The position numbers and the translations under genes are program-made. The notes beneath the pieces were generated by a model, which was not told where the DNA came from, searched no databases, and worked only from the letters and a program-made list of their open reading frames with translations. DNA of 64,000 bases from a virus. Lineage: Duplodnaviria > Heunggongvirae > Uroviricota > Caudoviricetes. This document shows, in pieces, positions 1,309 through 46,293 of the stretch (positions are counted from its first letter, which is position 1; every line of letters begins with the position of its first letter). The DNA lies in the IMG/VR virus record IMGVR_UViG_2609459856_000007, positions 1 to 64,000 of that record; one strand, 5' to 3'.

Positions 1309-1325
1309 AATACAAGGGATGACTC

Positions 1326-1835: not shown

Positions 1836-1846
1836 ATAAAATCCTT

Positions 1847-7508: not shown

Positions 7509-7554
7509 ATTACTTTTTCCGAATTATGTGGATAGTTTTTATAAGTGATGATAA

Positions 7555-7670: not shown

Positions 7671-7679
7671 GATACACTT

Positions 7680-7790: not shown

Positions 7791-7818
7791 AAACCGGCCA
7801 ACATAGCCGGTTGGAAGG

Positions 7819-9652: not shown

Positions 9653-10037
9653 AGAACGTGAAGTCAGAGACGGCGTTCTGTGCTTCCGTCGTGTGGCTGA
9701 ACGTGGCATGGAGCCAAAAAATACGAATTCTCCCGAGTGGTGGGCGTGGCGCTGGTCCGGACATTTCGGCCTTTGCGAAGATGAGAATGAAATTGCCAGC
9801 GGCAATAGTGCATATGGTGCTCTGAACCTGGCTTTCCATATCGGATTCAAACATGTAGCCCTGGTGGGCGTTGACGCTACGCAAGAACCACGAGTTCACT
9901 CCGGCGGCACGCCAAAAAATCTAAGTCACCTACCTTTGTTATTCCAGTCTGCGCGTGAACAGATTGACGTTGTTTCATGCGGGAAAATGGGAGGTATTCC
10001 GCAGATGACTCTTAAAGAATGGCTGAAGAATACATGA
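9627..10037 (+). CDS. hypothetical protein
   Basis: 136-aa ORF; could be a remnant. Confidence 0.3.
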
Positions 10038-10330
10038 TGGCACCCACAATTTATCACCGTATCGACGGTACCAAATACAGGAATGTCTGGGTTGTTGGTG
10101 ATCTGCATGGTTGCTACACCAGACTGATGTCCGAACTCCATCGTGTGGATTTTGACCCGGCGCAGGATTTACTGATATCGGTCGGCGACCTTATCGATCG
10201 CGGTACTGAAAATGTCGAATGTCTGGAACTATTGCAGATGCCCTGGTTCAGGGCAGTGATGGGGAACCATGAGCGGCTGATGATTGATGCGTTAAGTCCA
10301 GATGGCAACGTGAATAAACAAATTGGGTGA
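10019..10330 (+). pseudogene. lambda-type Ser/Thr protein phosphatase, N-terminal half only (homology ends about 10315)
   Basis: Metallophosphatase motifs GDLHG, GDLIDRG, GNHE; alignment with lambda PPase as recalled ends at ...GNVN, followed by 4 unrelated codons and a stop. Confidence 0.8.
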
Positions 10331-10481: not shown

Positions 10482-10641
10482 TTTATGGTGTCATAAACTT
10501 AAATCTAGCGCCGGGTAGAACAAGTTAATCGAACGATGTAGCGGCCATTTAGGCGTTACAGAAAGAACAGAATTTTAAATTTATAGTGAAGCCGTTGCAG
10601 CAACTTTGTGGGGTGCAACCAACACTGAACAGGAAAAGAAA

Positions 10642-13065: not shown

Positions 13066-13071
13066 GTCGTT

Positions 13072-14346
13072 ATGATGAAGATTTCTGAAATGCCGAAATA
13101 TGAGGTTTATAAGGATTCAGGTGTTGAATGGCTAGGGGATATTCCTGCGTCTTGGAGCTTATTAGCTAATAAGCACATCTTTCGCTTGAAGAAAAAACAG
13201 GTTGGAAAACGCTCAAGCGAATATGATTTGCTATCGCTTACTCTCAGAGGTGTGATTAAGCGTGATATGGAAAACCCAGAGGGTAAGTTCCCAGCAGAGT
13301 TCGATACTTATCAAGAAGTGCAGTGTGGAGATTTCATTTTCTGCTTGTTCGACGTGGAAGAAACACCCAGAACTGTTGGGTTGTCGCCATTTAATGGGAT
13401 GATTACTGGTGCATATACCGTTTTTGAACTAAATGACAATTTTGATAATAGGTTTTTATACTATTTTTATATGAACCTTGATGCAAAAAAGATGCTTAAA
13501 CCGCTTTATCGTGGCCTGAGAAATACAATTCCTAAAGATTCATTTCTGAGTTTTAAGACGTTTGTTCCTCCCCATGAGCAACAAACCCGTATCGCCAACT
13601 TCCTAGACAAGAAAATCGCTCTAATCGACGAAGCGATTTCGATCAAAGAAAAGCAAATTAATCTGTTAAAAGAACGTAAGCAGATCATCATCCAACAGGC
13701 GGTGACCCAAGGGCTTGATCCCAATGTGCCAATGAAAGACTCCGGTGTGGATTGGATTGGTAAGATTCCAGCGCATTGGAACTTAATGTCATTGAGATAT
13801 GCGTTTGAGTTTCTTAACAGTAGAAGAGTTCCAATAAGCGCAGTTGAGAGAGAGTCGAGACAGGGCGTATATCCGTATTACGGAGCAAGTGGTGTTATCG
13901 ATTATGTTGATGACTACATCTTTGATGAAGATTTAATCTTGATCGCTGAAGATGGCGCGAATTTGCTAAGCAAGTCAACACCATTGGCTTTTGTTGCAAC
14001 TGGAAAGTATTGGGTGAATAACCATGCACATATTATTAAGCCAAAATTTCATGGTTTTAAATACTGGGCCGAATTATTAAGCGGATTGGACTATACGGTA
14101 TATATTTCTGGTGCGGCACAGCCAAAATTAACAAGGGATCGTCTTGCAAGTGTATTGGTTCCAGTGCCACCAAAAGATGAAATTCAAGAAATAATTTCGT
14201 TCATTGAAGGAATTGAGCCAGATCTGAATCGCACGATTGATATCCAAAAGTCGCAGATTGAAAAGCTTAAAGAATACAAAACCACCCTGATCAACAGCGC
14301 CGTGACAGGAAAAATAAAAATCACCCCAGAAATGGTTGAGCAATAG
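13072..14346 (+). CDS. hsdS: Type I R-M specificity subunit HsdS
   Basis: 424-aa ORF between hsdM and hsdR with two-TRD-like repeated architecture and a conserved central coiled region. Confidence 0.8.
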   Translation: MMKISEMPKYEVYKDSGVEWLGDIPASWSLLANKHIFRLKKKQVGKRSSEYDLLSLTLRGVIKRDMENPEGKFPAEFDTYQEVQCGDFIFCLFDVEETPRTVGLSPFNGMITGAYTVFELNDNFDNRFLYYFYMNLDAKKMLKPLYRGLRNTIPKDSFLSFKTFVPPHEQQTRIANFLDKKIALIDEAISIKEKQINLLKERKQIIIQQAVTQGLDPNVPMKDSGVDWIGKIPAHWNLMSLRYAFEFLNSRRVPISAVERESRQGVYPYYGASGVIDYVDDYIFDEDLILIAEDGANLLSKSTPLAFVATGKYWVNNHAHIIKPKFHGFKYWAELLSGLDYTVYISGAAQPKLTRDRLASVLVPVPPKDEIQEIISFIEGIEPDLNRTIDIQKSQIEKLKEYKTTLINSAVTGKIKITPEMVEQ

Positions 14347-14355
14347 GACGCGAAT

Positions 14356-15519
14356 ATGTTCACGGTAAATCATCAAACTAACAGGATTAGTCCTGTTAGG
14401 ACAAAGAAGTTCAGTGAGTTGGGCTTTACTGAGCGCAAGCATCTTCAGGAGTGGTTGGCACACGAACCTTCCGCATTGGGTGAAGAGTTGTTGATTATTC
14501 AAAAAGAGTTCGATGGCTTTGATGACACCCGTGAACGATTAGATTTACTGGCACTGGATAAAGATGGCAACTTGGTCATTATTGAAAATAAGCTGGACGA
14601 CAGTGGCCGAGATGTGGTGTGGCAGGCCCTTAAATATGCCTCTTACTGTGCCAGTTTAACCAAAGCACAAATAGTTGACATTTACCAGCAGTACTGAGAT
14701 CGCTATGAGCCTGTAACAGCAGAGGTTGACCTGTTAAATGCCCCTGCAAGTGCTTCGGCGAGAATATGTGAATTTTTGGATGCGCCCGATCTGGATGAGT
14801 TAAAGCTCAACCTGGGTAACAGCCAGCGCATTATGCTAGTTGCGGCGAACTTTCGCAAAGAAGTAACCAGCACAGCGCTGTGGTTATTGGGTCAAGGCAT
14901 TAGCATTGCCTGCTTCAAAATCACTCCTTATTCACTGGGTGAACAGCTACTGATTAATATTGACCAGATCATCCCAACGCCAGAAGCGAAAGAGTTGATG
15001 ATCGGCATTAATGCCAAGGAAGCGGAAGAAAAAACCACCGAAGTGGTACTAAAAAACCGCCATACGGTGCGTCGCGAGTACTGGGAGCGTGCCTTAGAGG
15101 CGTTTCAGAAAAGCGCTTGCCAACTCTATAACAATATTAGCCCAAGCAAAGATCATTGGTTATCAGCAGGCTCAGGGTTAAGTGGGTGTCCGTATAACCT
15201 GATATTTCTGCAAAAAGAGCTTCGAGTAGAGCTTTGGATCAGCCGTGGGGTTACCGAAGAGAATAAATACCTTTTTGACTTGTTGAGTCAGTCCAAACAG
15301 GACATTGAACATGCTTTTGGTGCAGAACTTGAGTGGATGAGGCTGGATGAGAAGAAATCTTGCCGTATTCAGTTTTCGACCAAAGCTGATGGGTTTAATA
15401 AAGAGACGTGGCCCCAAGCGGTTGCGTGGCACTTAGAGCAGATGACAAAGTTAGAAAAAGCCTTGAAAGGACCGCTGCAAAAAGCGGCTGAGGCAATGAA
15501 ACAGAAGAATTTTGATTAA
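14356..15519 (+). pseudogene. PD-(D/E)xK nuclease-like protein (DUF4268-like) embedded between hsdS and hsdR, interrupted by an in-frame TGA at 14695-14697
   Basis: Track ORFs 14356-14697 and 14776-15519 are in the same frame and separated only by one TGA; N-terminal motif DLLALD...IIENK. Confidence 0.6.
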
Positions 15520-15533
15520 GGGAATTTACAATT

Positions 15534-19252
<3,719 letters not shown>

Positions 19253-19432
19253 CCACTTCATCTACACTCGCGGCATTGGAAGCAAAGATATGGTCGTCTG
19301 GCACCTGATGCACATTGATAAGGCTATCAACCACACGCTGGAGAAGTTCTTTCCACCAGCCTGAACACAATGATTGTGCGCCTTATAGCGCCCATTAAGA
19401 TAGATAAGTACTTACCAACAAGGAGAAAACAC

Positions 19433-30999: not shown

Positions 31000-31667
31000 T
31001 GACCAAAAACTTTGAAATCGTCTATCGAAACCCGGCAGAACTCATCCCGTATGAGATGAACGCCAAAAAACATGACGAACAGCAGATCCGCGATCTGGCG
31101 GCCGCCATCAAAAAGCGCGGTTTTGACCAGCCGATCACGGTCGACAAGCACGACGTCATCATTACTGGCCACGGTCGTCGCGAGGCGGCTCTTCTGGCTG
31201 GTCTGGAGCGTGTGCCGGTCATTGTTCGCGACGATCTGAGCGAAGAAGAAGTGAAGGCTAAGCGTCTGGAAGACAACCGCCTGGCCAGTATTGACTACGA
31301 CGCCATCAAATTGCAGCAGGAACTGGAATCCCTGGTGCTGGGCGACGTCGAGGTCTTCGGTTTTGAAGAGCGCGAGCTGAACGTGCTTGTCGGCAGCATG
31401 ACCGAAGAGATGGAAACCGGCTCTCTGGTGCTCGATCTGGGCGAAGAGACGGAGCGCCAGAAGGAAGAGCACACCGAGATCAGTCGCGAAGTGGCCTCTG
31501 AAGAAGTCCGCGTCATCGACGTATTGGGCTTTAAAACGCTCCCTGCTGGCTCTGCCATTGTGGTTGGGGATTTGCTTGCCCACATGGAAGAAATCACGGG
31601 AGAGAGCGGGGTAGACGCTTTCGTGGCGTATGCGGAGAAAGTTTCTTCTGGTGAGCTGGCCGCATGA
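30999..31667 (+). CDS. ParB-like domain protein, paralogous to the preceding gene
   Basis: ITGHGRREAA motif; ATG at 30999 with AAGGAG ribosome-binding site overlapping the upstream stop. Confidence 0.65.
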   Translation: MTKNFEIVYRNPAELIPYEMNAKKHDEQQIRDLAAAIKKRGFDQPITVDKHDVIITGHGRREAALLAGLERVPVIVRDDLSEEEVKAKRLEDNRLASIDYDAIKLQQELESLVLGDVEVFGFEERELNVLVGSMTEEMETGSLVLDLGEETERQKEEHTEISREVASEEVRVIDVLGFKTLPAGSAIVVGDLLAHMEEITGESGVDAFVAYAEKVSSGELAA

Positions 31668-32302
31668 GCAAATACACCATCAACGTATCGTTTCAGACCC
31701 GCGTGAACAAAACCACGCGCACGCTGGAGATTGCCGAATCGTTCGGTCTTGGCCTGGACGAAAAAGAGTGGACGCTTTACGACAATCTGGAGCTGGAAGT
31801 GAAGCAGGGCGATGTGGTGTACATCACCGGCCAATCCGGTTCCGGTAAATCCGTTGTGCTGCGCGAGCTGCAACGCCAGATGAAGGATGAAGGGCTTTCT
31901 GTAGCCTCCATCGATGACTTTGCCTTCGACAATGAGGTTAACGTCATTGACCAGCTGGGCAAAACCACCAGCGAAGCGCTGGGGCTGCTGTCTATGGCCG
32001 GATTGAATGACGCCTATCTCTTTGTGCGTAAGCCATCCGAGATGTCTGACGGCCAGAAATACCGTCTCAAGATCGCCAAGCTGATCGAGTCCGGCGCGAA
32101 AGTCTGGGCTGCCGACGAATTTGGCGCTGTTCTCGACCGTGTAACCGCCCAGGTTGTGGCGTCGAACCTCCAGCGTGCCGCCCGTAAGGTTGGTGCGACG
32201 GTAATGGTGGCGACGACCCACGAAGACCTGAAGAACGCGCTGCGCCCGGATATGCAGATCACCAAGCACTACAAAGAACGCGTGAAGGTGGAATATGCCT
32301 GA
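31664..32302 (+). CDS. compact ABC-type ATPase (nucleotide-binding domain only)
   Basis: Walker A GQSGSGKS, signature-like SDGQKYR, Walker B VWAADEF, H-loop TTHED; 212 aa. Confidence 0.65.
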   Translation: MSKYTINVSFQTRVNKTTRTLEIAESFGLGLDEKEWTLYDNLELEVKQGDVVYITGQSGSGKSVVLRELQRQMKDEGLSVASIDDFAFDNEVNVIDQLGKTTSEALGLLSMAGLNDAYLFVRKPSEMSDGQKYRLKIAKLIESGAKVWAADEFGAVLDRVTAQVVASNLQRAARKVGATVMVATTHEDLKNALRPDMQITKHYKERVKVEYA

Positions 32303-32549
32303 TTTGAAGATCGTAGAGCTGAAGCCATCGAAAGAGGCTGACAACAACAACGTTGAAGTCATCCGCCTGCTGGAAGAAGCACTCCAGTACGCCAGAGAAG
32401 GCAAAAGCCAGAGCCTGGCACTGCTGATGATCAACAACGACGGCAGTGTGCTGGATTGCTGGCATAACGGTGGGCGTCCATACGTCATGGTTGGGGCGAT
32501 GGAATCGCTTCGCCTGGACTTCATCAATGCCAATATCGAGCGTAGGTGA
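32295..32549 (+). CDS. small hypothetical protein (84 aa)
   Basis: Overlapping starts/stops with both flanking genes. Confidence 0.45.
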   Translation: MPDLKIVELKPSKEADNNNVEVIRLLEEALQYAREGKSQSLALLMINNDGSVLDCWHNGGRPYVMVGAMESLRLDFINANIERR

Positions 32550-33472
32550 TCGACATGACAGGCATCATCATCAAACGCTACCGCCCGGAAGAGTTCCCGC
32601 GTCATCTGGACTTTCTGGAGCGTATGACCGTTACCAAAGGCACGGTTGAAGACTGGCACGCGCTGAAGTCGCTGCACTACAAGACGGATGGTAAGCCGTT
32701 TGCGCCAACGTATTATCGCTGCGAACTGGACGACCGGCTGGTGGGCGTCGTGGTTATGGCTTACCCGAAACTGCTGCTGGCGCCTCGCCATCGCATGTTT
32801 CCTAAGCTGAAGCCAACCACCAATACCACCGTGGCCAACCAGTATTGGGGGCGGTACGTGAACAACAACTTTGCGGTGATCAGCCGTTCCGTTGTGGACA
32901 CTCAGTACCGCGGTGTCGGCGTCTCCTATCGAATGATTAACCTGGTTAGCAGGATGCACGACCGGCCAATCATCGAGATCCAGTCGTCGATGAGCAAATA
33001 CAACCCGTTCGCCATGAAAGCAGGGTTCCAGTTCATCCGTCCGGAGCGTCCGAAGAGCTATGAGAGTGCGTTGCGTGTCTTCCAGCGTCATTTCCGTTCC
33101 GACCCTGGCGACAACGAAGCGATCGTCAAAGAGCTGTTTGCCATGAGTGAGTCTCGCCGTCGTCGTGCGCTGCGTGATCTGGTCGCTGACTACCACAAGA
33201 ACAGTTCCCTGGCCAAAGCCGGGCGTAATCGTGGCACGACGATTCAGGACATTGCCGACAGCCTGGTGGACGAGGCCAGCATCGTGAAGCTGCTCAAGGA
33301 CATTCACAACCTGAGCTTCACGTCTCCGCTGTATGGCGTGTACCGAAACCCGGACTTTGGTCGTCAGCTGCCGGACACGCTGCCACTGCTGGCATTCGAC
33401 AAACAGCCTTTGAATAACCCTCTTGAAATTGCATTATCCGAAGAAGCCCCCGCCGATCGCAGACCGTGTTAA
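32546..33472 (+). CDS. GNAT-fold acetyltransferase-like N-terminal domain protein with uncharacterised C-terminal domain
   Basis: GNAT motif-A/B-like QYRGVGVSYRM and NPFAMKAGFQFI; 308 aa. Confidence 0.5.
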   Translation: MIDMTGIIIKRYRPEEFPRHLDFLERMTVTKGTVEDWHALKSLHYKTDGKPFAPTYYRCELDDRLVGVVVMAYPKLLLAPRHRMFPKLKPTTNTTVANQYWGRYVNNNFAVISRSVVDTQYRGVGVSYRMINLVSRMHDRPIIEIQSSMSKYNPFAMKAGFQFIRPERPKSYESALRVFQRHFRSDPGDNEAIVKELFAMSESRRRRALRDLVADYHKNSSLAKAGRNRGTTIQDIADSLVDEASIVKLLKDIHNLSFTSPLYGVYRNPDFGRQLPDTLPLLAFDKQPLNNPLEIALSEEAPADRRPC

Positions 33473-33695
33473 CGCAGTGAACCGCATGTTGATGAGTGCC
33501 TCGGGCGAAACCCGGTTGTACATCGATCCGAAGTGCAAACACCTCATCGACTCGCTGGAGAAGGTGATCTACAAGCCAGGCTCACGCGATATGGATAAGA
33601 CTGGCGGCATCGAACACAGTGCGGATGCGTTAGGTTATCCGGTTCATCGTAGGTATCCGGTGAAAAATCGTGTTATTCTTGGTGGATCTAGATAG
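33414..33695 (+). pseudogene. terminase large subunit, C-terminal ~70-aa remnant
   Basis: RLYIDPKCKHLIDSLEKVIY...DKTGGIEHSADALGY is typical of a TerL nuclease-domain C-terminus; only about 93 codons are open upstream-to-stop in this frame. Confidence 0.55.
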
Positions 33696-33728
33696 GTAAG
33701 TACTTACCTAATAGGAAAAGAAAATCAA

Positions 33729-35303
33729 ATGGAATTGACTGACAAGCAAATCAAAGACCTTGTGGCACGACGCCACCCAGAATATGAGAAGAAAAAAGAA
33801 CATTGGGACTTCCTCGCCAGCACCTACGCTGGCGGGCGTGCCTGGTTCAACGACAATATCTTCCGTTACTTCAAAGAGGGCGATCAGGAGTTCAAAGAGC
33901 GCCTGGAACGCGCTTATCGCTTCAACCATACGCGCGAAGTGGTAAACCTCATCAACAAATACCTCTTCAAAGAGGTCATTCACCGCAACACTGATGAAGC
34001 ACCGGAGCAGATCCGCAATTTCTGGAAGCGAGCCACGCGCCAGAACGCCTCCATCGATGCGTTTATGGCGGCTATCGATCTGCAATCATCCATTTATGGC
34101 CGTATCTGGGTTGTCGTGGATAGCACGATGAACGTCGATGTTGAGTCTGTTGCAGACGAGAAGAAAAATGATGCGCGTGCCTACGCTTACTGGATTTCGC
34201 CGCAGCAGCTGCTTGATGTTGCCTGGGATGAAGACGGCAATATGTTGTGGGCGCTGATTGTTGAAATCGCGCGCGACGACGAAGATCCGTTCACTTCAAC
34301 CGGGCAGGAATACCAGCGTTACCGTCTGTGGACGCAAAACGAGTGGTATCTGTTCCGTGAAGAAGTGAAGAAGGGTTCCGGAAATAGCGGTCGCCGTCAG
34401 GCCAAAGTCGTTCTGGAGGATAGCGGCCAGCATAATCTGGGCGTGGTGCCGGTGTTCCCGGTGGATTGCATTGGTGAAAGCGAGTCTCCGTATTTTAGCC
34501 CGTCGTTGATTGACGATATTGCCTATCTTGATCGCGCCGTGGCCAACTACCTGTCGAACCTTGACGCGATTATTCAGGATCAGACATTCAGCCAGTTAGC
34601 GATTCCGGTTCAGTCCCTGCTGCCGGGCGATGAAAACCACACCAAAGTGCTCGAAATGGGGACAAAACGTGTCTTCACCTTCGATTCTGAGAGCGGTAAT
34701 CAGCCATTCTATCTGTCTCCAGACCCGAAACAGGCTCAGATGATCATCACCACGATTAAGACGGTGATTAATGAGATCTACCATTCCGTTGGTGTGGCTG
34801 GTGAGCGAACCAAGCAGGATAACGCGCAGGGTATCGACAACTCTTCGGGGGCAGCGAAGATGTACGACTTCCAACGTATTAACAGTCTGTTGGTGACAAA
34901 AGCAGAGCGCCTCGAAAGGGCAGAACGCCAAATGATGGAGTTGGCTGCGAAATGGATGGGCATCGAATTGGATGAAGACCACTCTCTGATCGCTTACCCG
35001 GAGAGTTTCGATATTCGTGGTCTGACTGACGAATTTGCCGTCGCTGAGAAATTGTCGCTGTTACAGGCGCCTGATTCTGTACGTCGTCATCAGATGGAAA
35101 TGCTCATAGAAAAGATCTTCCCGAATATTTCCGAAGCGATGCAAAAGGAATTTAAAAAAGATCTCTTGAAATTTCCTCTAAAAAATGCTCCTGGCGCCCT
35201 TGAAAATAAGTCAGTACTTACTTATGATCGAGATACAGTCCAAGAAAGCGGACAAGATCAACCCCGAGGGAATGGGGACTCATCTACTCAAGAGACCGAG
35301 TGA
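33729..35303 (+). CDS. phage portal protein
   Basis: 524-aa ORF immediately after the terminase remnant and before scaffold/capsid genes. Confidence 0.65.
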   Translation: MELTDKQIKDLVARRHPEYEKKKEHWDFLASTYAGGRAWFNDNIFRYFKEGDQEFKERLERAYRFNHTREVVNLINKYLFKEVIHRNTDEAPEQIRNFWKRATRQNASIDAFMAAIDLQSSIYGRIWVVVDSTMNVDVESVADEKKNDARAYAYWISPQQLLDVAWDEDGNMLWALIVEIARDDEDPFTSTGQEYQRYRLWTQNEWYLFREEVKKGSGNSGRRQAKVVLEDSGQHNLGVVPVFPVDCIGESESPYFSPSLIDDIAYLDRAVANYLSNLDAIIQDQTFSQLAIPVQSLLPGDENHTKVLEMGTKRVFTFDSESGNQPFYLSPDPKQAQMIITTIKTVINEIYHSVGVAGERTKQDNAQGIDNSSGAAKMYDFQRINSLLVTKAERLERAERQMMELAAKWMGIELDEDHSLIAYPESFDIRGLTDEFAVAEKLSLLQAPDSVRRHQMEMLIEKIFPNISEAMQKEFKKDLLKFPLKNAPGALENKSVLTYDRDTVQESGQDQPRGNGDSSTQETE

Positions 35304-35325
35304 TAAGTAACGAAAAGGTATTTCT

Positions 35326-36222
35326 ATGAATCTGTGGCAAATGCTTATGGCCCGTCGTGGCCTGATGGATGTAGCCGAAGCGCATGAGCGCGGCGGCGCT
35401 GGTGGCGGTGCTCCTGCTGGAGACAATGAGCAGAGCATTCAAGACCCAGGCAAACAGGGCGAGCAAAAAGAGCAACCGAAGGGTGACGACGATGAGTATG
35501 CCGGTATGACTCAGGAAGAGTTGCTGGCAGAACTGCGTAAGTCTAAGAAAGCCGGTGCTGATCTGTTGAAAGAGAACATGAAGCGCAAGGAGAAAGAGCG
35601 CACATTGGCCGATCAGCTGGCTCAGTACGGTGATATTGACCCGACGCGTGCTCGTCAGCTTCTCGAAGCTGAACAAGCCGCAGAAACCGCACGTCGGGAG
35701 GCGGAGCAGGCTGAACTGGAACGTCGTGGTGAGTTCGATGCTGTGAAAAAGCAGATGATCGAAGCACACCAGACTGAACTGGCACAGCGCGACGAACGCT
35801 ACTCCGCTCTGGAGAGCGAGAACGCCGCACTGAAGGCTCAACTGGTCGAAATGACTGTTGGTGTTTCCTTCAGCAGTTCTGCTTTCCTGCGTGACAAAGT
35901 TCTGATGACTCCGGCTAAGGCACGCGTTATCTACGGCTCTCATTTCGAAGTGGGTGAAGACGGTAGTGTTGTGGGCTTTGATAAGCCAGCCGGTCAGAAA
36001 GAACGTGCAGTTCTGGTTGACGGTGAAGGCAAGCCGTTACCGTTCGAATCCGCGATTGAGCGCATTCTGCGTGCAGATCCGGAAGCTGACGCACTGTTGC
36101 GTAGCGAAGCCAAGCAGGGTGCTGGTTCCAATAGCAAACCGACCCACAAAGTAAGCCAGCCGAAGAGCAAGTCGACTATGGATAAGTTGACCTCCGGTCT
36201 GGGAAAAATCGGACTCAAGTAA
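35326..36222 (+). CDS. phage scaffolding protein
   Basis: 298-aa charged, coiled-coil-rich ORF between portal and capsid genes. Confidence 0.6.
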   Translation: MNLWQMLMARRGLMDVAEAHERGGAGGGAPAGDNEQSIQDPGKQGEQKEQPKGDDDEYAGMTQEELLAELRKSKKAGADLLKENMKRKEKERTLADQLAQYGDIDPTRARQLLEAEQAAETARREAEQAELERRGEFDAVKKQMIEAHQTELAQRDERYSALESENAALKAQLVEMTVGVSFSSSAFLRDKVLMTPAKARVIYGSHFEVGEDGSVVGFDKPAGQKERAVLVDGEGKPLPFESAIERILRADPEADALLRSEAKQGAGSNSKPTHKVSQPKSKSTMDKLTSGLGKIGLK

Positions 36223-36248
36223 CATCTTAAATCATAGGGAAATGAAAG

Positions 36249-37124
36249 ATGCCATTACTGCGTGATGAAGCTGAAAAGCTGTCTAATAACGAACTTGAGC
36301 AGGGTGTGATCGAGACCATCATCGATCGCGATGACCTGTTCGCTATTCTGCCTTTCATGAAGATTAATTCTAAGGCATACCTTTACAACCGCGAAGCTAC
36401 CCTGAGCGAAGCTACCTTCATTGATGTGAACGACACCATCACTGAAGGCGCAGCAACCTTCAGCGAACACGTTGCGAAGCTACGTATCCTGGCAGGCGAC
36501 GTAGACGTCGACAAATTCCTGGCGACCACTATGTCCGACACCAACAACCAGCTGGCAATCCAGGTTCGTCAGAAGGTGAAAGGTCTGGCTCGCGCATTCC
36601 GCCGCAATCTGATTCTGGGCGACTCCAGCACCAACACCAAAGCGTTCGACGGTATTCCGAAACTGATGCACGACGATCAGAAGATCGACATCGAAGGCGC
36701 TTCCATGACCTTCTCCATGTTCGACGAACTGGTCGACGCGGTGAAAGATCTGGGTGCGGACTGCATCATGATGCGCTCCGAGCATCTGCGTGCTTATCGC
36801 GCTCTGCTGCGTACCGTTAATATCGGCCCGTCCGAAATTATGATGGAAAACTTCGGTCGACCGATGTTGTGCCACAACGGTGTACCTTTCATCGTGAACG
36901 ACTTCATCCCGACTGACGCGGGCAAAGCAAGCATCTACTGTCTGCACCTGTCCGAAGAGAACGGTGTGACCGGTCTGTATGGCGGTGAAAACGCTGGTAT
37001 CGTTGTTGAGAACATCGGTACTGTTCAGAACAAAGACGCAACCCGTACCCGCGTTAAGTGGTACTGCTCTCTGGCGAACAAGCACGACAAAGCTATCGCC
37101 GCGCTGACCAATGTAAAAATTTGA
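36249..37124 (+). CDS. major capsid protein
   Basis: 291-aa ORF following the scaffold gene, followed by a strong terminator. Confidence 0.65.
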   Translation: MPLLRDEAEKLSNNELEQGVIETIIDRDDLFAILPFMKINSKAYLYNREATLSEATFIDVNDTITEGAATFSEHVAKLRILAGDVDVDKFLATTMSDTNNQLAIQVRQKVKGLARAFRRNLILGDSSTNTKAFDGIPKLMHDDQKIDIEGASMTFSMFDELVDAVKDLGADCIMMRSEHLRAYRALLRTVNIGPSEIMMENFGRPMLCHNGVPFIVNDFIPTDAGKASIYCLHLSEENGVTGLYGGENAGIVVENIGTVQNKDATRTRVKWYCSLANKHDKAIAALTNVKI

Positions 37125-37157
37125 TCAGAATGATAGGTAAGTAGTTATCTACTTAAT

Positions 37158-37186
37158 ATGGGTGGGCTATACGCCCACCTTTTTTG
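37158..37186 (+). terminator. rho-independent terminator after the capsid gene
   Basis: GGTGGGC-TATAC-GCCCACC hairpin followed by TTTTTT. Confidence 0.7.
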
Positions 37187-37198
37187 TAGGAGCGATAA

Positions 37199-37525
37199 AT
37201 GCCAGAACAAAAGATGAAAATCATGGAGGAGACGTTTGCGGATTTCACAGGGCATATGTGCCGTGCCGGATTCACCAACTCCGTCTCCAACGAGCCTCTG
37301 AGCGAGCGCCAGCAGAACCATCTTGCGGCTTGCTTCCGGACAGTTCCGTTCACGCAGTCTGTCAGCGTGGAGTCTGTTGCTCTGACTCCTGATTCTGTCT
37401 CTGTTGAGAAGGGGAAGTCAGTCAAATTGCGAGTTGATGTGCAACCGTCAAACGCAACCAATCAAAAAGTCACCTGGACTTCTCAAAATAGCGACAAAGC
37501 GACCGTGGATCAGAACGGTATCTGA
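37199..37525 (+). CDS. Big_2 (bacterial Ig-like) domain protein, apparently truncated
   Basis: VKLRVDVQPSNATNQKVTWTSQNSDKATVDQNG matches the first half of a Big_2 domain; ends abruptly. Confidence 0.45.
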   Translation: MPEQKMKIMEETFADFTGHMCRAGFTNSVSNEPLSERQQNHLAACFRTVPFTQSVSVESVALTPDSVSVEKGKSVKLRVDVQPSNATNQKVTWTSQNSDKATVDQNGI

Positions 37526-38687
37526 AGAAAAAAACGCCCGAGCAACTGCCGACGAATCTTTGGCACAACAGATAACTACATTGAAGAGTCAAACGGGCAA
37601 GGATATTAAGGCGGCTGTAGCTGAAGAGACGAAAGCCAGAACTGATGCTGATTCCGCTTTGGCTTCTAATATCACTAATCTACAGGCTCAAACGAGCAAA
37701 GATATTCATGCTGCGATTACATCTGAAGCGACTGCGCGTACAAGCGCCGACAATGCACTAAGTGGGAGAGTTGACACCTTAAAAGCATCAGTAGATGGAA
37801 ATACAGCAACAATTCAACAACAGGCCACAGCTATTGCTGATACGAACAAGAAGGTATCAACAGCCTGGACGCTGAAAATGGAAACCTCCACCAGCGGAGG
37901 CCAAAAATATGTTGCCGGCATAGCGTTGGGCATCGACACAACAGGTCTATCGCAGTTTTTGGTGCAGGCAGATCGCTTTGGTTTGGTGAACTCCGTTAAT
38001 GGGAAAATTACAACGCCATTCGTTATTGATGCCGGTGTGGCTTATATGAACGGAGCTTATATCAAGAACGGCACCATTGATAACGCCAAAATAGGCAACT
38101 TCATTCAGTCCAACGATTACTCAAGCGGGATGACGGGGTGGCATATTAATAAAAACGGGAACTCAGAGTTTAACAATGTAACTGTTAGAGGCACCGTTTA
38201 CGCAACGAATGGCAAATTCACAGGAGAAATACAGGCTACCAGCGGAACATTCAGAGGCACGGTACAAGCAGATCACTTCGTAGGCGATGTCGCTAACATG
38301 TATGTGGGCAATGACTTCTCAGTTCGTTACAACGGCACATATACAATGACATATACAGACTCTTCTTCGTCTGCATTGCCCAAAAATATTTATGTGGCAA
38401 TAAATGTATATACGGGGGGCGTCGGCCCTGTTGCAGCCCAATTTACCTGCAATGGAGTGACGAAGACCGCAACCACTGGTAAGGGGACAACATACAGAGA
38501 CCCTGATCTTAATTCAACAAGATCTACAGGCGTCGGTGGCACTCTTTACGCTGCTTTTAACAATGTTACCTCAAGAACTGTTGCTGTTACGGTAAAAGTG
38601 ACCAGTTCATCACAGACACATATTTATTCGCCCGTGATGCTAATCAGCCGTGGAAGTGGCGCATTTTCCATGTCGGGCATCAGTTAA
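37526..38687 (+). pseudogene. tail fibre protein segment lacking its own start codon (5'-truncated or frameshifted)
   Basis: Track ORF 37404-38687; fibre-like repeats (TDADSALASNITNLQAQTSKDIHAAITSEATARTSADNAL); no in-frame ATG until about 37878; A7 tract at the junction. Confidence 0.5.
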
Positions 38688-38822
38688 TTGATGGGAATAA
38701 TGAGCAGCAATGTATACAGCGTGTTTTCTTAGTGCAAAAGGATTTTGTATCATGGATAATAAGTAAGTATATACCTATTTGTGTGGGCAAGGACGCCCAC
38801 ACTTCAAGGAGTGAAAAAGAAC

Positions 38823-41800
38823 ATGTGGTACAGGGAAGGTACTGTTACATTTACAAAAGGAAGCGACACAATATCAGGCATCGGAACACGTTGGAATTTG
38901 ACCGAAAACGGCGTGTTACCGGGCATGATTGTCATTGGTCCTGACAATAAGTTGTATGAGGTCAAGCGCGTAACCAGTGATACGGTCATTGTCCTCTCAG
39001 AACCTTATACCGGCGAAACTCAATCTAAAGTTCCGTGCCGAATCATTACGACCTATGAAGGCGACTTAACTCAGTTTAGTGCGCGCTTTACTGCACTAAT
39101 GTCGCGTATGTCGGCTGATTCCAAGTCCATGCGCAGTTGGTTGACCGCTCTGGATGATGTGACAATCGAGCGTGAAGACGGTACAGAAGTGACCGTTAAG
39201 CCGCTAATGCAGATCGTCAACGAGCATAACGAAAACGTTGAGTGGTATAAAAATAACACCGATGCGATTGAGGCCGCTGGAGACAAAGCTCGGGAGGCGG
39301 CGGCCAGTGCTGTCGCTGCGGCAGAAAGTGCCAACACTGCTGTAGAAAAAGCCTCTCAGGCATCTCAAAGTGCATCCGCTGCGGTATCTTCACAAAGTGC
39401 GGCGAGTGAGAGTGCAGCTGCTGCGGAAAAATCTGAAACAAACGCAGAAGCGGCAAAAGAAGCGGCAGCAGAATCAGCATCTGTGGCGTCGACTAAAGCA
39501 TCGGAGGCAGCCACATCAGCGTCCAGTGCCTCTGCATCTAAGGATGCGGCTAAATTATCAGAGACTAACGCTTCATCGAGTGCAAACGCGGCAGCATCAT
39601 CAGCTACAGAAGCTGCAAATTCATGTAAGGCAGCAAAAGCATCAGAGACAAACGCAAAAGCGTCTGAAGCTGCTGCCGAACAGAGTGCATTGTCTGCAAA
39701 CAGTTCGAAATCTGCGGCAGAAACGTCAGCGAGCGCGGCCTCAGTAAGCGCGGATAGTGCTTCATCAAGTGCAACGTCGGCAGAAAAGTCTGCGGAAAGC
39801 GCTTCGTTATCCGCGGCAAATGCCACCGCTAAAGCGACAGAGGCGACGAAACAGGCAACAGCTGCGGAAAAGTCAGCAGAGGCGGCAAAATCTTCTGAAA
39901 CCAATGCAAAGACTTCAGAAGACAATGCCGCTGCTTCTAAGGAGACAGCAGCCGAATCTGCAAGCTCTGCCTCTGTTTCAGCTTCCTCGGCGTCATCTTC
40001 AAAAGATGAGGCCGCTCGCCAGGCGTCAGCGGCAGCAGAGAGTGCGACAACGGCATCAACGAAGGCGACGGAAGCGGCAGACAGTGCGACGGCGGCTGCG
40101 CAGAGCAAAAATGCGGCAGAATCCGCGGCAACACGCTCTGAGACAGCGGCAAAACGAGCTGAGGATATTGCATCCGCCGTGGCGCTTGAGGATGCAAGCA
40201 CGACGAATAAGGGAATAGTACAACTTAGTAGCTCAACTAATAGCGAATCGGAGTCATTTGCAGCCACCCCAAAAGCAGTAAAGACAGCATATGATCTTGC
40301 TAATGGCAAATACACTGCACAGGACGCCACCACGTCGCAAAAGGGGCTTGTTCAGCTTAACAGTGATACCAACAATAGCAGTGAAAGTTATGCGGCCACA
40401 TCAAAGGCCGTGAAGGCCGCATACGACAATGCTGAAACACGCCTTCGGAAAGACCAGAATGGCGCGGATATACCTAGCAAAGACACCTTCGCAAAAAATA
40501 TTGGCGCAGCGAAAGCTGCTGGCGGCAGTATCAGTATTGGGGGAGACAGCAACAACTGGACGACGGCGCAATTTATTGAGTGGTTGGAGTCTCAGGGGGC
40601 ATTCAATTATCCATACTGGATGTGCAAAGGCTCTTGGTCTTACGCTGCCAATAAAATCATCACGGATACCGGTTGTGGGAATATACAACTCGCTGGCGCT
40701 GTAGTTGAAGTTATGGGGGTTCGGGATGCTATGACGATTCGCGTCACTACCCCCACGACGGCAACGAATGGCGGAACCGTCAAGGCTCAGTTTACCTACA
40801 TCAACCACGGTGACTCTTATGCGCCAGGCTGGAGGCGCGACTTTAATCGAGCTGGCGATTCAATGTCAGGCCAATTGACTTTGGCGAATATGTCGCAGCC
40901 ATTAAGATCACCTGGTGGTGGTATATTTGCCAATGATGGCAACGTGTATATCAATAAACCGGGTTTCGCTGGATGGATTGATGCACTCTTTTTGAAATTA
41001 ACCGGAGGAACTTTAACCGGGTCACTTGGATTTCAAAATTCAAACGGGAAAGTATTCAGGGTGCAGACTACTGAAACTCCGTCACTGAATACTTATATGC
41101 AGGTATGGGGAAATTCTTCAAGGCCAACGGTAATTGAATTCAAAGACGATCAAGGCTATCACTTTTACAGTCAGAGAAACACTGACAATACTATTACAAT
41201 GAGTATAAATGGAGAGGTGGTTTCCGAAACAGCAAATGCTTTCCGTGCAGTATATGGGAATTATGGCTTCTTCATTCGAAATGATGGGGCGAATACTTAC
41301 TTTCTGTTGACAAATTCAGGTGATCAACATGGAAGTTGGGGACCTTTACGTCCACTATATATTAGCAATACAACAGGACGAGTGACACTTGGAAATGGCG
41401 TTGATATTAGTAATGGGGCAGTAATTAACGGTAGCGTCGGATTAGGGGTGTCGAATGCGCTTGGCGGAAACTCTATCGTATTAGGCGATAATGATACTGG
41501 CTTAAAACAGAATGGTGATGGCATTCTTGATGTTTATGCAAATAATGCCCATGTTTTTCGGTTCACTAATGGCACGTTGCAAAGTCTTAAGCCGTTGAGT
41601 GTAACGGGGGATATCACGTCAAGTGCATGGGTTTATGCCAACAGCTACTCTATCAACAGCGGTTCTGGCGCATGGATCGATATGCGGAGCCAGAACGTCA
41701 TCTTCGGGAAGAATGCTGTAAGCACAAGCTCTGCACAAGCGTTGTTGAGACAAGACCACGCGGATCGCAAATTCTTTGTGGGTGGCTTGGGAAACAGTCA

Positions 41801-42212
41801 GTTTGGTTTTTACATGATCAACAACTCACGTACCGCGAATGGCACGGATGCGAACGCATATCTTCAAAATGATGGTACTTGGGTTTGTGGAGGTAATGGT
41901 AACTTTAACGATGTTTATATCCGCTCTGATGCCAGACTTAAAAGTAACTTCGCACCGATTAAAAATGCTCTGAGTAAGGTGAAAGTACTGAGCGGATTAA
42001 TTTACGATAAAAAGGAAAATTTTCAATCTAGTACGGTTCGTCGTGAGGCGGGTGTTGTTGCTCAGGAACTCCAAAAGGTTTTACCGGAAGCTGTTTCAGC
42101 TTACAAAGATGCAAATGGCGAAGATGTTCTGACTATTTCAAATTCTGCACAAATAGCACTTCTTATTGAGGCTGTTAAAGAGCTGGCAGCAATCATTGAA
42201 CAAAAAATATGA
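38823..42212 (+). CDS. long tail fibre protein with Ala/Ser-rich repeat shaft and C-terminal intramolecular chaperone (peptidase S74-like) domain
   Basis: ATG 38823 with AAGGAG ribosome-binding site; repeats (SESFAATPKAVK, SESYAATSKAVK); C-terminal LSGLIYDKKENFQ...REAGVVAQELQKVLPEAV. Confidence 0.75.
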   Translation: MWYREGTVTFTKGSDTISGIGTRWNLTENGVLPGMIVIGPDNKLYEVKRVTSDTVIVLSEPYTGETQSKVPCRIITTYEGDLTQFSARFTALMSRMSADSKSMRSWLTALDDVTIEREDGTEVTVKPLMQIVNEHNENVEWYKNNTDAIEAAGDKAREAAASAVAAAESANTAVEKASQASQSASAAVSSQSAASESAAAAEKSETNAEAAKEAAAESASVASTKASEAATSASSASASKDAAKLSETNASSSANAAASSATEAANSCKAAKASETNAKASEAAAEQSALSANSSKSAAETSASAASVSADSASSSATSAEKSAESASLSAANATAKATEATKQATAAEKSAEAAKSSETNAKTSEDNAAASKETAAESASSASVSASSASSSKDEAARQASAAAESATTASTKATEAADSATAAAQSKNAAESAATRSETAAKRAEDIASAVALEDASTTNKGIVQLSSSTNSESESFAATPKAVKTAYDLANGKYTAQDATTSQKGLVQLNSDTNNSSESYAATSKAVKAAYDNAETRLRKDQNGADIPSKDTFAKNIGAAKAAGGSISIGGDSNNWTTAQFIEWLESQGAFNYPYWMCKGSWSYAANKIITDTGCGNIQLAGAVVEVMGVRDAMTIRVTTPTTATNGGTVKAQFTYINHGDSYAPGWRRDFNRAGDSMSGQLTLANMSQPLRSPGGGIFANDGNVYINKPGFAGWIDALFLKLTGGTLTGSLGFQNSNGKVFRVQTTETPSLNTYMQVWGNSSRPTVIEFKDDQGYHFYSQRNTDNTITMSINGEVVSETANAFRAVYGNYGFFIRNDGANTYFLLTNSGDQHGSWGPLRPLYISNTTGRVTLGNGVDISNGAVINGSVGLGVSNALGGNSIVLGDNDTGLKQNGDGILDVYANNAHVFRFTNGTLQSLKPLSVTGDITSSAWVYANSYSINSGSGAWIDMRSQNVIFGKNAVSTSSAQALLRQDHADRKFFVGGLGNSQFGFYMINNSRTANGTDANAYLQNDGTWVCGGNGNFNDVYIRSDARLKSNFAPIKNALSKVKVLSGLIYDKKENFQSSTVRREAGVVAQELQKVLPEAVSAYKDANGEDVLTISNSAQIALLIEAVKELAAIIEQKI

Positions 42213-42274: not shown

Positions 42275-42532
42275 GTGTCAATTTCAAATGTTCCAGGATG
42301 GATAGGATCATCAGCGGTTTCCGAAACAGGGCAACGTTGGATGAGTGCTGCCCGTATTGGCCTTGCACAAATTGCTGACGTTATGCCTCAAGTTTCTGCC
42401 GCAATGGATAAAGCGCAAGGCAATATCTCCAGTGGAGATACGGTACGCATCATCTTTGGCGTAGCTACCATTCTTGTGGCAGCATTCATTGCCTGGTCCC
42501 AGGTTCGCAAGCACCAGAAAGGATTAGTGTAA
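42275..42532 (+). CDS. putative holin / small membrane protein
   Basis: 85-aa ORF with one C-terminal hydrophobic helix, directly upstream of the spanin pair. Confidence 0.4.
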   Translation: MSISNVPGWIGSSAVSETGQRWMSAARIGLAQIADVMPQVSAAMDKAQGNISSGDTVRIIFGVATILVAAFIAWSQVRKHQKGLV

Positions 42533-45920: not shown

Positions 45921-46293
45921 TATTGCATCTCTTAGCTACTGACTAATGCGTTCTATTTTACACATAAGTGTTTAATCAATTTTACAGGCTCAAAGTGTAG
46001 AGCTTCTGGGTGTCTAAGACGACAAGTTATGCCTGTTTCTGTATATAAATAATAAGTAACTTATTAAATATATACGGAAGCAGGTCTTTTAAAAGACACC
46101 CACCAGAACAACTCCCTTCCGTTTCCACTTCCCAAAAATATCTCCAGTCGCTATGATTCGCTAACTTAGATAAGTAAGTACATACCTATTAAAGGGAATC
46201 ATGTGAGCCAGATCTTCTTCAACACTATCGACAATGACCAGTACGATTTCATGACAGAGTGGAATACTGATACCGGTTTACGATCTGGATGGC

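What the first reader, a model, noticed from the sequence alone, without database searches (positions are those of the whole stretch)
33414..42212. Incomplete morphogenesis block: terminase remnant, no tail tube or tape-measure genes, mosaic fibre junction
Portal, scaffold and major capsid genes are intact and followed by a strong terminator. Only the last roughly 70 residues of a terminase large subunit remain at the 5' end. Between the capsid gene and the fibres there are no head-completion, tail tube, tape-measure or baseplate genes. A truncated Big_2 domain ORF abuts, out of frame and across an A7 tract, a fibre segment that has no start codon. The block may be a capsid-plus-fibre remnant that depends on genes elsewhere, or a decaying prophage region.
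Basis: partly seen in the sequence, partly recalled or inferred. Interest (0 to 1): 0.55.

Follow-up and report, generated by a model that had tools for sequence, protein, structure and literature searches.

The report
Decaying phage-plasmid capsid gene remnant
This is a leftover piece of an SSU5-type phage-plasmid whose packaging and tail genes were removed by two deletions, sitting inside an equally eroded P1-like plasmid; it is an ordinary case of a phage decaying into a plasmid.

Summary
Window 33435-42212 is collinear with, and 96-99.8% identical to, the morphogenesis module of SSU5/pSLy3-type phage-plasmids. Two clean deletions interrupt it.

- **J1 (33435-33440)** removes 2,117 bp: an 88-aa ORF, the TerS-like DNA-binding gene and TerL codons 1-332.
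- **J2 (37519-37520)** removes 14,788 bp: the rest of the Ig-like gene, head completion, major tail, chaperones, tape measure, M, L, K, I and J residues 1-1135.

Portal, scaffold, capsid and the 1129-aa fibre are intact. The gp38-like adhesin is also cut, by J3.

The window is bases 1-64000 of contig JNMN01000021.1 (GCA_000700365.1). An independent Logan assembly of SRR1186779, the only read set that carries this strain's private junctions, reproduces J2, and its contig ends 9 bp from J1. tblastn finds none of the missing genes in 73 of the contig's 92 kb.

The SSU5-like DNA plus a type I R-M system forms one 50-kb insert in the ppp gene of a P1-like (IncY) plasmid. That plasmid has itself lost genes 21, 22, 5, 6, 24, 7, 25 and 26, and part of 23. 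Sister contigs 99.98% identical in the flanks have lost the whole capsid remnant.

Verdict: a non-functional, recently decayed remnant. This kind of element is already known. The specific P1::pSLy3 chimera has no closed representative in the collections searched. Interest is low.

The parts
32555..33472 (+). phrog_886 gene (305 aa) read across J1. The last 2 codons of the native protein are replaced by 11 codons read out of frame from the TerL 3' end.
   Evidence: phrog_886, E 3.8e-165; residues 1-294 of 296 match the relative.
33435..33440 (.). J1: breakpoint of a 2,117-bp deletion, with 2-4 bp microhomology (TA, or ATTA with the SSU5 allele). It removed an 88-aa ORF, the 213-aa TerS-like DNA-binding gene and TerL codons 1-332.
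   Evidence: All related plasmids carry about 2.1 kb more here.
33435..33695 (+). 3' remnant of the terminase large subunit gene (codons 333-418 plus stop). The largest ATG ORF is 33486-33695 (69 aa).
   Evidence: phrog_10250, profile 143-225 of 228.
33729..35303 (+). Portal protein gene, intact (524 aa).
   Evidence: phrog_145, E 5e-140; 99.4% over 524 aa.
35326..36222 (+). Scaffolding protein gene (DUF6651), intact (298 aa).
   Evidence: 99.3%.
36249..37124 (+). Major capsid protein gene (HK97 fold family), intact (291 aa).
   Evidence: phrog_212, E 1e-107; 100% identity.
37160..37180 (+). Intrinsic-terminator-like hairpin followed by a T6 run, downstream of the capsid gene.
37199..37525 (+). 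Truncated Ig-like (Big_2) head-decoration gene: codons 1-107, then one junction-derived codon and TGA.
   Evidence: Big_2, E 8.6e-17, profile 2-52 of 79.
37519..37520 (.). J2: breakpoint of a 14,788-bp deletion, with 2-bp 'TA' microhomology. It removed the Ig-like C-terminus, head-completion genes, major tail protein, chaperones, tape measure, M, L, K (C40 peptidase), I and J residues 1-1135.
   Evidence: Reproduced in an independent Logan assembly of SRR1186779. Absent from PLSDB, RefSeq E. coli, INPHARED, IMG/VR and JGI metagenomes.
37518..38687 (+). C-terminal remnant (residues 1136-1524) of the gpJ-like tail-tip / central fibre gene, without its native start.
   Evidence: 99.5% over 389 aa; phrog_31 central tail fiber J, phrog_2589; Phage_Tail_Tip.
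38823..42212 (+). Side tail fibre gene, full length (1129 aa; Phage_fiber_2, Gp34_trimer and Peptidase_S74 domains).
   Evidence: 99.8% over 1129 aa.
42275..42532 (+). Fusion ORF across J3 (42354-42356, a 1.6-kb deletion). The first ~27 aa of the gp38-like adhesin are joined to the last 60 aa of a membrane protein, so the adhesin / receptor-recognising gene is lost.
   Evidence: J3 is shared by at least 5 samples.

Best explanation
The block is a non-functional remnant of the virion module of an SSU5/pSLy3-type siphovirus phage-plasmid.

**What the deletions did.** Two microhomology-mediated (illegitimate) deletions removed the packaging genes and the whole head-completion and tail region.
- J1 (2.1 kb) removed TerS-like and most of TerL.
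- J2 (14.8 kb) removed everything from the Ig-like C-terminus through J residue 1135.
- A third deletion, J3, removed the fibre adhesin.

Portal, scaffold, capsid and the side fibre survive intact, most likely because the deletions are recent (inferred). The surviving proteins are 99.3-100% identical to those of intact relatives.

**Where the remnant sits.** It lies in about 41 kb of surviving SSU5-like DNA. That DNA, together with a type I R-M system, forms one 50-kb insert in the ppp gene of a P1-like IncY plasmid. In the window the SSU5-like part lacks its own repA region, dnaE and DnaB-like helicase, and keeps only the 3' part of the primase gene.

**How the element is maintained (inferred).** It is presumably replicated and segregated by P1 repA and the parAB genes, and stabilised by phd/doc and a GNAT/TacA-type toxin-antitoxin pair.

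**Shown versus inferred.** Shown here: the homologies, the breakpoints, the absence of the missing genes from 73 kb of the contig, the reproducibility of J2, and the decay series in sister contigs. Inferred: that no particles are made, and that the capsid genes have no current function.
For: 1. **Collinearity and identity.** The block is 96% identical to phage SSU5 and 98.9-99.8% identical to p1919D62-2, with exact breakpoints.
2. **Uniform reference state.** Every related record listed from PLSDB and from complete RefSeq E. coli genomes carries the about 2.1 kb missing at J1 and stops matching at J2. No record covers either junction.
3. **No second copy.** tblastn with 26 morphogenesis proteins of the intact relative finds only the remnants listed, and no other copy, in contig 1-73082.
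4. **Source and reproducibility.** The window is JNMN01000021.1:1-64000. A separate Logan assembly of SRR1186779 runs without a break through J2, J3 and J4 and starts 9 bp after J1. J2 is therefore in the reads, J1 marks a real discontinuity, and no closely related intact copy forked the assembly graph at J2-J4.
5. **Stepwise decay.** Sister contigs (GCA_016673895.1, SRR25057515) are 99.98% identical in the flanks but lack window 32634-37617. That span is the entire capsid remnant. The right edge of their deletion lies only 98 bp past J2.
6. **Independent precedents.** Other pSLy3-like plasmids have lost parts of the same module independently: pYLPI6a and pRHB17-C02_4.
7. **Single insert in P1.** The SSU5-like block is one insert in P1 ppp. 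The P1 part is also eroded: genes 21, 22, 5, 6, 24, 7, 25 and 26 are absent and 23 is truncated.
8. **Literature.** Published work describes phage-plasmids becoming plasmids by gene loss, and describes hybrid or defective phage-plasmids (PMC10879196; bioRxiv 10.1101/2025.08.29.673033).
Against: - J1 itself is seen only in the NCBI contig. The Logan contig breaks next to it rather than crossing it.
- The last 19 kb of the 92-kb contig, and the other contigs of this draft genome, could not be read. A second, more divergent SSU5-like element or a helper phage in the same cell is therefore not excluded.
- The three head genes and the fibre carry no inactivating mutation. That is also what retention under selection would look like.
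Confidence: 0.87

Rival explanations
1. Helper-dependent (satellite-like) module. The retained portal, scaffold, capsid and fibre genes would be functional and would build particles using terminase, connectors and tails supplied by a co-resident SSU5-like phage-plasmid, or would re-target a helper through the fibre.
For: The head genes and the fibre are full length and 99.3-100% identical to functional relatives. A terminator and the gene order are preserved. A co-resident helper cannot be excluded, because only 73 of 92 kb of one contig was readable.
Against: - The breakpoints cut inside ORFs (TerL, Ig-like, J, adhesin) rather than at module borders.
- The fibre's adhesin is deleted by J3, and the J remnant lacks its start.
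- Sister elements 99.98% identical in the flanks have discarded the whole capsid block and are seen in at least two further samples.
- The Logan contig passes J2-J4 without forking, which argues against a near-identical intact copy in the same reads.
Confidence: 0.05
2. Assembly artefact. The junctions would be collapses or chimeric joins in a short-read draft assembly, and the real molecule would carry a complete module.
For: The source is a draft WGS contig. J1 is found only in that contig, and a second assembler breaks 9 bp from it.
Against: - J2, J3 and J4 are reproduced base for base by a different assembler (Logan) from SRR1186779, the only read set that carries this strain's private junctions.
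- J3, J5 and the P1/SSU5 junction occur in 5 to 7 or more other samples.
- A 2-bp overlap cannot be created by k-mer assembly unless reads span it.
- If TerL were intact, the Logan contig would continue into it rather than end at the breakpoint.
Confidence: 0.04
3. Ordinary phage with scattered modules. The terminase and tail genes of the same lineage would lie elsewhere on the replicon and virions would be made.
For: About 19 kb of the contig (73-92 kb) was not readable. P1 lpa, pacA and most of pacB are present at 70.2-73.1 kb.
Against: - Every listed SSU5-type relative carries these genes at this locus, and in SSU5 and p1919D62-2 the whole module is one contiguous block.
- The SSU5-derived DNA is a single insert bounded on both sides by the P1 ppp gene.
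- tblastn finds no second copy in 73 kb.
- pacAB belongs to the P1 lineage, and the P1 sheath and baseplate genes are also missing.
Confidence: 0.03

Closest known systems
Salmonella phage SSU5 and pSLy3-type E. coli phage-plasmids (e.g. p1919D62-2, NZ_CP046008.1)
   Same: The gene order TerL-portal-scaffold-MCP-Ig-like ... J-fibre is shared. Identity is 96% to SSU5 and 98.9-99.8% to p1919D62-2. The flanking ParB-like and ABC-ATPase-like genes are the same.
   Different: It lacks the TerS-like gene, TerL codons 1-332, all head-completion and tail genes, J residues 1-1135 and the adhesin. It also lacks the SSU5-type repA region, dnaE and the DnaB-like helicase, and keeps only the 3' part of the primase gene. 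It is embedded in a P1-like backbone.
Defective pSLy3-like plasmids pYLPI6a (NZ_CP074043.1) and pRHB17-C02_4 (CP057716.1)
   Same: They show independent deletions in the same morphogenesis module of the same plasmid family. Ilchenko et al. list NZ_CP074043 as a pSLy3-like element that failed the conserved-protein thresholds of their typing tool.
   Different: The breakpoints differ. pYLPI6a keeps M, L, K and I but lacks the TerL-to-TMP genes apart from a 228-bp scaffold-gene fragment. pRHB17-C02_4 lacks everything from ParB-like to fibre. Both keep their own IncFIB repA and are stand-alone plasmids.
P1-derived plasmids and defective or hybrid phage-plasmids (Pfeifer & Rocha 2024, PMC10879196; Ilchenko et al. 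2025 bioRxiv)
   Same: The process is the same: a phage-plasmid loses essential phage genes and persists as a plasmid. Co-integrates between phage-plasmids are anticipated in these papers.
   Different: This is a specific P1::pSLy3 chimera in which both parents are eroded. No closed representative was found in PLSDB or among complete RefSeq E. coli genomes.
Capsid-forming phage satellites (cf-PICI type)
   Same: The resemblance is superficial: capsid genes are present without tail genes.
   Different: Here the terminase is destroyed and the borders are mid-gene deletions.

Membership tests
SSU5-supergroup (pSLy3-type) phage-plasmid | Homology and synteny of conserved core genes with SSU5/pSLy3 elements | tested here: met
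   96-99.8% nucleotide identity and collinear gene order.
SSU5-supergroup (pSLy3-type) phage-plasmid | Complete virion module (terminase, portal, capsid, head completion, tail tube, tape measure, tail tip, fibres) | tested here: not met
   The TerS-like gene, the TerL N-terminal 332 aa, the head-completion genes, major tail, TMP, M, L, K, I and J residues 1-1135 are absent from contig 1-73082.
SSU5-supergroup (pSLy3-type) phage-plasmid | Own plasmid replication module (IncFIB-type repA region) | tested here: not met
   Reference region 62906-90072, which includes repA, has no megablast match in the window. No protein-level search for repA was run.
P1-like (IncY) phage-plasmid | P1-type repA plus a parAB partition locus | tested here: met
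   Window 4081-7508 carries ParB, ParA and RepA. repA (window 6361-8191) is 96% identical to P1. The parA/parB stretch (window 3984-6360) has no blastn match to P1 itself and is a divergent allele shared with IncY plasmid NZ_CP020936.1.
P1-like (IncY) phage-plasmid | Complete P1 morphogenesis gene set | tested here: not met
   P1 54466-57281 (pmgG N-terminus, 21, 22, 23 C-terminus) and 65709-80373 (including 5, 6, 24, 7, 25, 26) are absent at their syntenic positions. P1 17-53 kb was not seen in the 73 kb read.
P1-like (IncY) phage-plasmid | pacA/pacB packaging genes and the late activator lpa | tested here: met
   L020 carries lpa, pacA (397 aa) and pacB, the last cut by the locus end, at contig 70.2-73.1 kb, 93% identical to P1.
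Capsid-forming satellite (cf-PICI-like) | Own small and large terminase plus head-tail connector genes alongside the capsid genes | tested here: not met
   Only TerL codons 333-418 remain, and there are no connector genes. The list of defining features comes from my own knowledge.
Defective phage-plasmid / phage-plasmid-derived plasmid | Close relatedness to a functional phage-plasmid, together with loss of essential lytic genes while plasmid maintenance functions persist | tested here: met
   Definition as used in PMC10879196 and bioRxiv 10.1101/2025.08.29.673033.
Defective phage-plasmid / phage-plasmid-derived plasmid | Inability to produce virions | not testable with these tools
   This needs induction, TEM and sequencing of virion DNA.

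The most novel reading that the evidence does not exclude
The roughly 92-kb P1::pSLy3 chimera keeps P1 lpa, pacA (which in P1 contains the pac site), most or all of pacB, and the repA/parAB genes. Its contig length is close to the 94.8-kb P1 genome. It could therefore be a P1-helper-dependent, satellite-like plasmid that is packaged and transduced by headful packaging when a complete P1-like phage is present. Its repeated deletions, including those that shaped this block, might reflect selection to stay within P1 head capacity after the 50-kb insertion. On this reading the surviving SSU5 capsid genes would still be cargo awaiting loss.
Probability: 0.08. Interest if true: 0.5.

Novelty: new member of a known kind. 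Interest (0 to 1): 0.2.

Why it matters
The block adds a well-resolved example of how phage-plasmids decay into plain plasmids. It has base-exact breakpoints and a visible series of steps: the intact relative, then the J1+J2 state, then loss of the whole capsid block in sister contigs. This happened while the flanking sequence diverged by only about 0.02%. It also documents a chimera of two different phage-plasmid types, P1-like and pSLy3-like. The chimera is seen in about eight samples but has no closed representative in the collections searched. The practical point is that such remnants give hits to capsid, portal and fibre families and can be mis-scored as phages or phage-plasmids by annotation tools. 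No new mechanism or gene family is involved.

Tried and rejected
- **Programmed frameshift at the A7 tract joining the Ig-like ORF to the fibre segment.** Rejected. The Ig-like ORF ends at TGA 37523-37525, before the tract at 37528-37534. The tract is native J-gene sequence, and the join coincides with a deletion breakpoint.
- **Fibre-fibre mosaic recombination at 37520.** Rejected. The right side is the contiguous C-terminus of the gpJ-like gene of the same plasmid family.
- **IS-mediated or repeat-mediated deletion at J1 and J2.** No IS and no repeat longer than 2-4 bp lies at the breakpoints.
- **Transposition of the 50-kb block.** megablast suggested a 9-bp overlap, but the sequence shows only a 3-bp 'TAA' microhomology and no target-site duplication.
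- **Same junctions elsewhere.** No record with J1 or J2 was found in INPHARED, PLSDB or RefSeq E. coli. A J2-spanning pattern was also absent from IMG/VR and JGI metagenomes; J1 was not searched there. The J1 fusion protein is on record only for the source contig.
- **Closed chimera.** No closed genome carries the P1/SSU5 junction.
- **Literature on the source.** Searches for SRR1186779 and for JNMN / GCA_000700365 gave nothing relevant.
- **Rest of the contig.** Positions 73-92 kb could not be retrieved.
- **Encapsulin-like domestication of the capsid gene.** Pfam gives a weak SrpI-like hit. I take this as generic HK97-fold similarity, because the protein is 100% identical to the capsid protein of intact phage-plasmids.

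Full report
**1. What is at 33414-42212**

ORF listing and family scans identify the following features on the + strand.

| Window coordinates | Feature | Evidence |
|---|---|---|
| 33423-33695 | ORF matching only the C-terminal third of a TerL family | phrog_10250, profile 143-225 of 228 |
| 33729-35303 | Portal, 524 aa | phrog_145 |
| 35326-36222 | Scaffold, 298 aa | DUF6651 / phrog_206 |
| 36249-37124 | Major capsid protein, 291 aa | phrog_212 |
| 37160-37180 | Terminator-like hairpin plus T6 | |
| 37199-37525 | Truncated Big_2 ORF, 108 aa | |
| up to 38687 | Central-fibre J / Phage_Tail_Tip segment in another frame | |
| 38823-42212 | Fibre, 1129 aa (Phage_fiber_2, Gp34_trimer, Peptidase_S74) | |

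**2. Which element it comes from**

- megablast shows that 33433-37364 is 96% identical to Salmonella phage SSU5 across its TerL-to-Ig-like gene block.
- The same block is 98.5-99.7% identical to many non-mobilizable plasmids of about 106-120 kb, all Escherichia (mostly E. coli); the three read in full here type as IncFIB. These are the pSLy3-type members of the SSU5 supergroup.
- The fibre region is 99.8% identical to p1919D62-2 (NZ_CP046008.1).

I downloaded p1919D62-2 whole and aligned it to the window. This gave exact breakpoints.

- **J1.** Window 19843-33440 matches reference 90072-103665, and window 33435-37520 matches reference 105783-109865. J1 is therefore a 2,117-bp deletion.
  - It removes the last few bases of the phrog_886 gene, an 88-aa ORF, the 213-aa DNA-binding gene (SSU5_001, the likely small terminase) and TerL codons 1-332.
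  - Microhomology is 2 bp, or 4 bp ('ATTA') with the SSU5 allele.
- **J2.** Window 37519-42356 matches reference 10525-15362. J2 is therefore a 14,788-bp deletion across the origin of the circular reference, with 2-bp 'TA' microhomology.
  - It removes the rest of the Ig-like gene, eight head-completion, tail and chaperone genes, the tape measure, M, L, the C40 peptidase K, I, and residues 1-1135 of the 1524-aa J-like protein.
- **No frameshift site.** The Ig-like ORF terminates at a TGA 3 nt past the join. The A7 tract is native J sequence, so there is no frameshift site and no fibre mosaic.

**3. Are the missing genes elsewhere?**

The window is bases 1-64000 of contig JNMN01000021.1 (92,435 bp; GCA_000700365.1). 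Loci fetched by exact protein look-up have identical coordinates and sequence. This let me read the contig out to 73,082.

tblastn with 26 proteins of the intact relative finds only the remnants already listed. There is no second or divergent copy of the TerS-like gene, the TerL N-terminus, connectors, major tail, TMP, M, L, K, I, the J N-terminus or the adhesin.

The SSU5-like DNA is also a single contiguous block.

- P1 coordinates 80374-81058 lie at window 9633-10317.
- P1 81050-83858 resumes at window 60418-63227.
- So 50.1 kb sits inside the P1 ppp (metallophosphoesterase) gene. This insert is a type I hsdMSR system plus about 41 kb of SSU5-like DNA. Only a 3-bp microhomology marks the join.

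Beyond the insert the contig continues as P1: pmgQ, pmgR, pmgS ... humD, phd, doc, pdcB, lpa, pacA, pacB. The only complete terminase found therefore belongs to a different lineage.

**4. Is it real?**

- A Logan assembly of run SRR1186779 yields a 32.7-kb contig. It differs from the window at 3 positions and passes through J2, J3 and J4 without a break. This is the only read set found with the strain's private junctions J2 and J4.
- That contig begins at window 33449, 9 bp after J1. J1 is therefore a real discontinuity in the reads, although it is crossed only in the NCBI contig.
- An unforked path through J2-J4 also argues against a near-identical intact copy in the same cell.
- Other junctions of the element recur in independent samples. 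J3 occurs in at least 5 samples. J5 and the P1/SSU5 junction occur in at least 7.
- No record with J1 or J2 was found in PLSDB, complete RefSeq E. coli genomes or INPHARED, and a J2-spanning pattern was absent from IMG/VR and JGI metagenomes.

**5. Decay in progress**

The SSU5-like segment has several further losses.

- A 27-kb region that includes its repA.
- The roughly 10-kb dnaE region, at the site of recombination with P1.
- A 2.76-kb piece holding the DnaB-like helicase and the primase N-terminus (J4).
- 580 bp of the CobT-like gene (J5).
- The gp38-like adhesin (J3).

The P1 part has also been eroded. It has lost pmgG (N-terminal part), 21, 22 (sheath) and the C-terminus of 23. It has also lost a 14.7-kb block that includes dmt, ban and the baseplate and tail genes 5, 6, 24, 7, 25 and 26.

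Two sister contigs show a later stage. DADDCD010000022.1 (91.9 kb) and SRR25057515_98 are 99.98% identical to the window over more than 13 kb of flanks, yet they lack window 32634-37617. That 4,984-bp span contains J1, all three head genes and J2. The right edge of their deletion lies only 98 bp beyond J2. This proximity is most simply explained if the J1+J2 state came first and the orphan capsid block was then deleted. Those sisters still hold DNA at J4 that this strain has lost, so each branch continued to delete independently.

Other sisters have also lost lpa and full-length pacA/pacB from their position between pdcB and c1 (L019 and L021).

Independent erosion of the same module is seen in stand-alone pSLy3-like plasmids.

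- pYLPI6a lacks the genes from TerL to the tape measure, apart from a 228-bp scaffold-gene fragment.
- pRHB17-C02_4 lacks everything from ParB-like to the fibres.

**6. Mechanism**

The best explanation (confidence 0.87) is a defective remnant.

- Without TerS and the TerL ATPase domain no DNA can be packaged.
- Without connectors, tube, tape measure and tail tip no tail can form.
- Without the adhesin the side fibre lacks its receptor-binding partner.

The intact state of portal, scaffold, capsid and fibre most likely reflects recency. Their protein identity to functional relatives is 99.3-100%, and there is no sign of selection for retention. The replicon is presumably maintained by P1 repA and the parAB genes plus addiction modules (inferred from gene content).

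Rivals are listed with their evidence in their own section. They are helper-dependent function (0.05), assembly artefact (0.04) and scattered-module phage (0.03).

**7. Comparison with what is known, and novelty**

Conversion of phage-plasmids into plasmids by gene loss is described in PMC10879196 and in bioRxiv 10.1101/2025.08.29.673033. Those papers also describe hybrid, co-integrate and defective phage-plasmids. The second paper names pYLPI6a as a pSLy3-like element that fails its conserved-protein thresholds.

The present block is another member of this known kind. It fails the membership test for a functional SSU5-type phage-plasmid and also for a functional P1-type one. It meets the test for a defective phage-plasmid derivative.

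The particular P1::pSLy3 chimera recurs in about eight samples. It has no closed representative in PLSDB or among 5,426 complete E. coli genomes. That is a modest point of novelty.

**8. Limits**

- J1 rests on one assembly plus a coincident contig end in a second.
- No expression or particle data exist.
- The host species is not stated in any record I could read. All close relatives are Escherichia plasmids (E. coli and E. fergusonii).

Noticed in passing
window 10317-60418 (flanks 9633-10317 and 60418-63227): A 50.1-kb block (type I R-M system plus about 41 kb of SSU5/pSLy3-like DNA) is inserted in the P1 ppp (metallophosphoesterase) gene of a P1-like IncY plasmid, with only a 3-bp 'TAA' microhomology. 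This P1::pSLy3 chimera junction occurs in at least 7 other samples. No closed plasmid in PLSDB or complete RefSeq E. coli genomes carries it.
   Followed up: yes
window 1284-3983 and 9633-9654: The P1-like backbone is itself eroded. P1 54466-57281 (pmgG N-terminus, 21, sheath 22, C-terminus of capsid gene 23) and P1 65709-80373 (dmt, tRNAs, ban, dbn, 5, 6, 24, 7, 25, 26, pmgL-O) are missing. The truncated gene 23 product (502 aa) is found in 6 contigs from several samples.
   Followed up: partly
window 32634-37617 compared with L026 (GCA_016673895.1 DADDCD010000022.1) and L028 (SRR25057515_98): Sister contigs 99.98% identical in the flanks have a 4,984-bp deletion that erases the whole capsid remnant. 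They retain about 2.2 kb at J4 that this strain has lost. Deletions are therefore accumulating much faster than point substitutions in this lineage.
   Followed up: yes
window 46262-46267 (J4) and 57532-57535 (J5): There are two further deletions relative to all relatives. One is 2,760 bp and removes a hypothetical gene, the DnaB-like helicase and the primase N-terminus; it is private to this strain. The other is 580 bp inside the CobT_C 'porphyrin biosynthesis' gene, leaving a 516-aa ORF; it is shared by at least 7 samples.
   Followed up: partly
window 10606-18551: A complete-looking type I restriction-modification system: HsdM 819 aa, HsdS 424 aa, a DUF4268 protein and HsdR 1005 aa. It is followed by an IS integrase-core ORF at 18566-19252. 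The same block is found in many pSLy3-like plasmids and in conjugative plasmids.
   Followed up: partly
window 1-1281: The contig starts inside an IS4-family IS421 copy (transposase at 54-1172, minus strand). This is the likely reason for the assembly break, and it leaves open whether the molecule closes at about 92 kb.
   Followed up: no
window 33447-33451: The independent Logan contig of SRR1186779 starts at 33449, inside a C5 run 9 bp after J1. Three mismatches to p1919D62-2 cluster within the 11 bases after the junction; two of them match the SSU5 allele and the third is in neither SSU5 nor p1919D62-2.
   Followed up: partly
window 39345-40811: The middle of the 1129-aa fibre gene shares 72-84% nucleotide identity with side tail fibre (stf) genes of lambdoid E. 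coli and Salmonella phages. This is ordinary fibre mosaicism and is unrelated to the J2 junction.
   Followed up: no
window 31295-33307, minus strand: A 670-aa open reading frame runs antisense to the ParB-like, ABC-ATPase-like and phrog_886 genes. It is probably a shadow ORF, because the plus-strand genes have very strong family hits. I did not examine it.
   Followed up: no
L019 / L021 (GCA_053275535.1, GCA_032650805.1), locus positions about 18300-19400: In other members of the chimera lineage, P1 lpa, pacA and pacB are absent from their position between pdcB and c1. L019 has a 258-aa ORF there and L021 has no called gene. The lineage is therefore also losing the P1 packaging genes.
   Followed up: no
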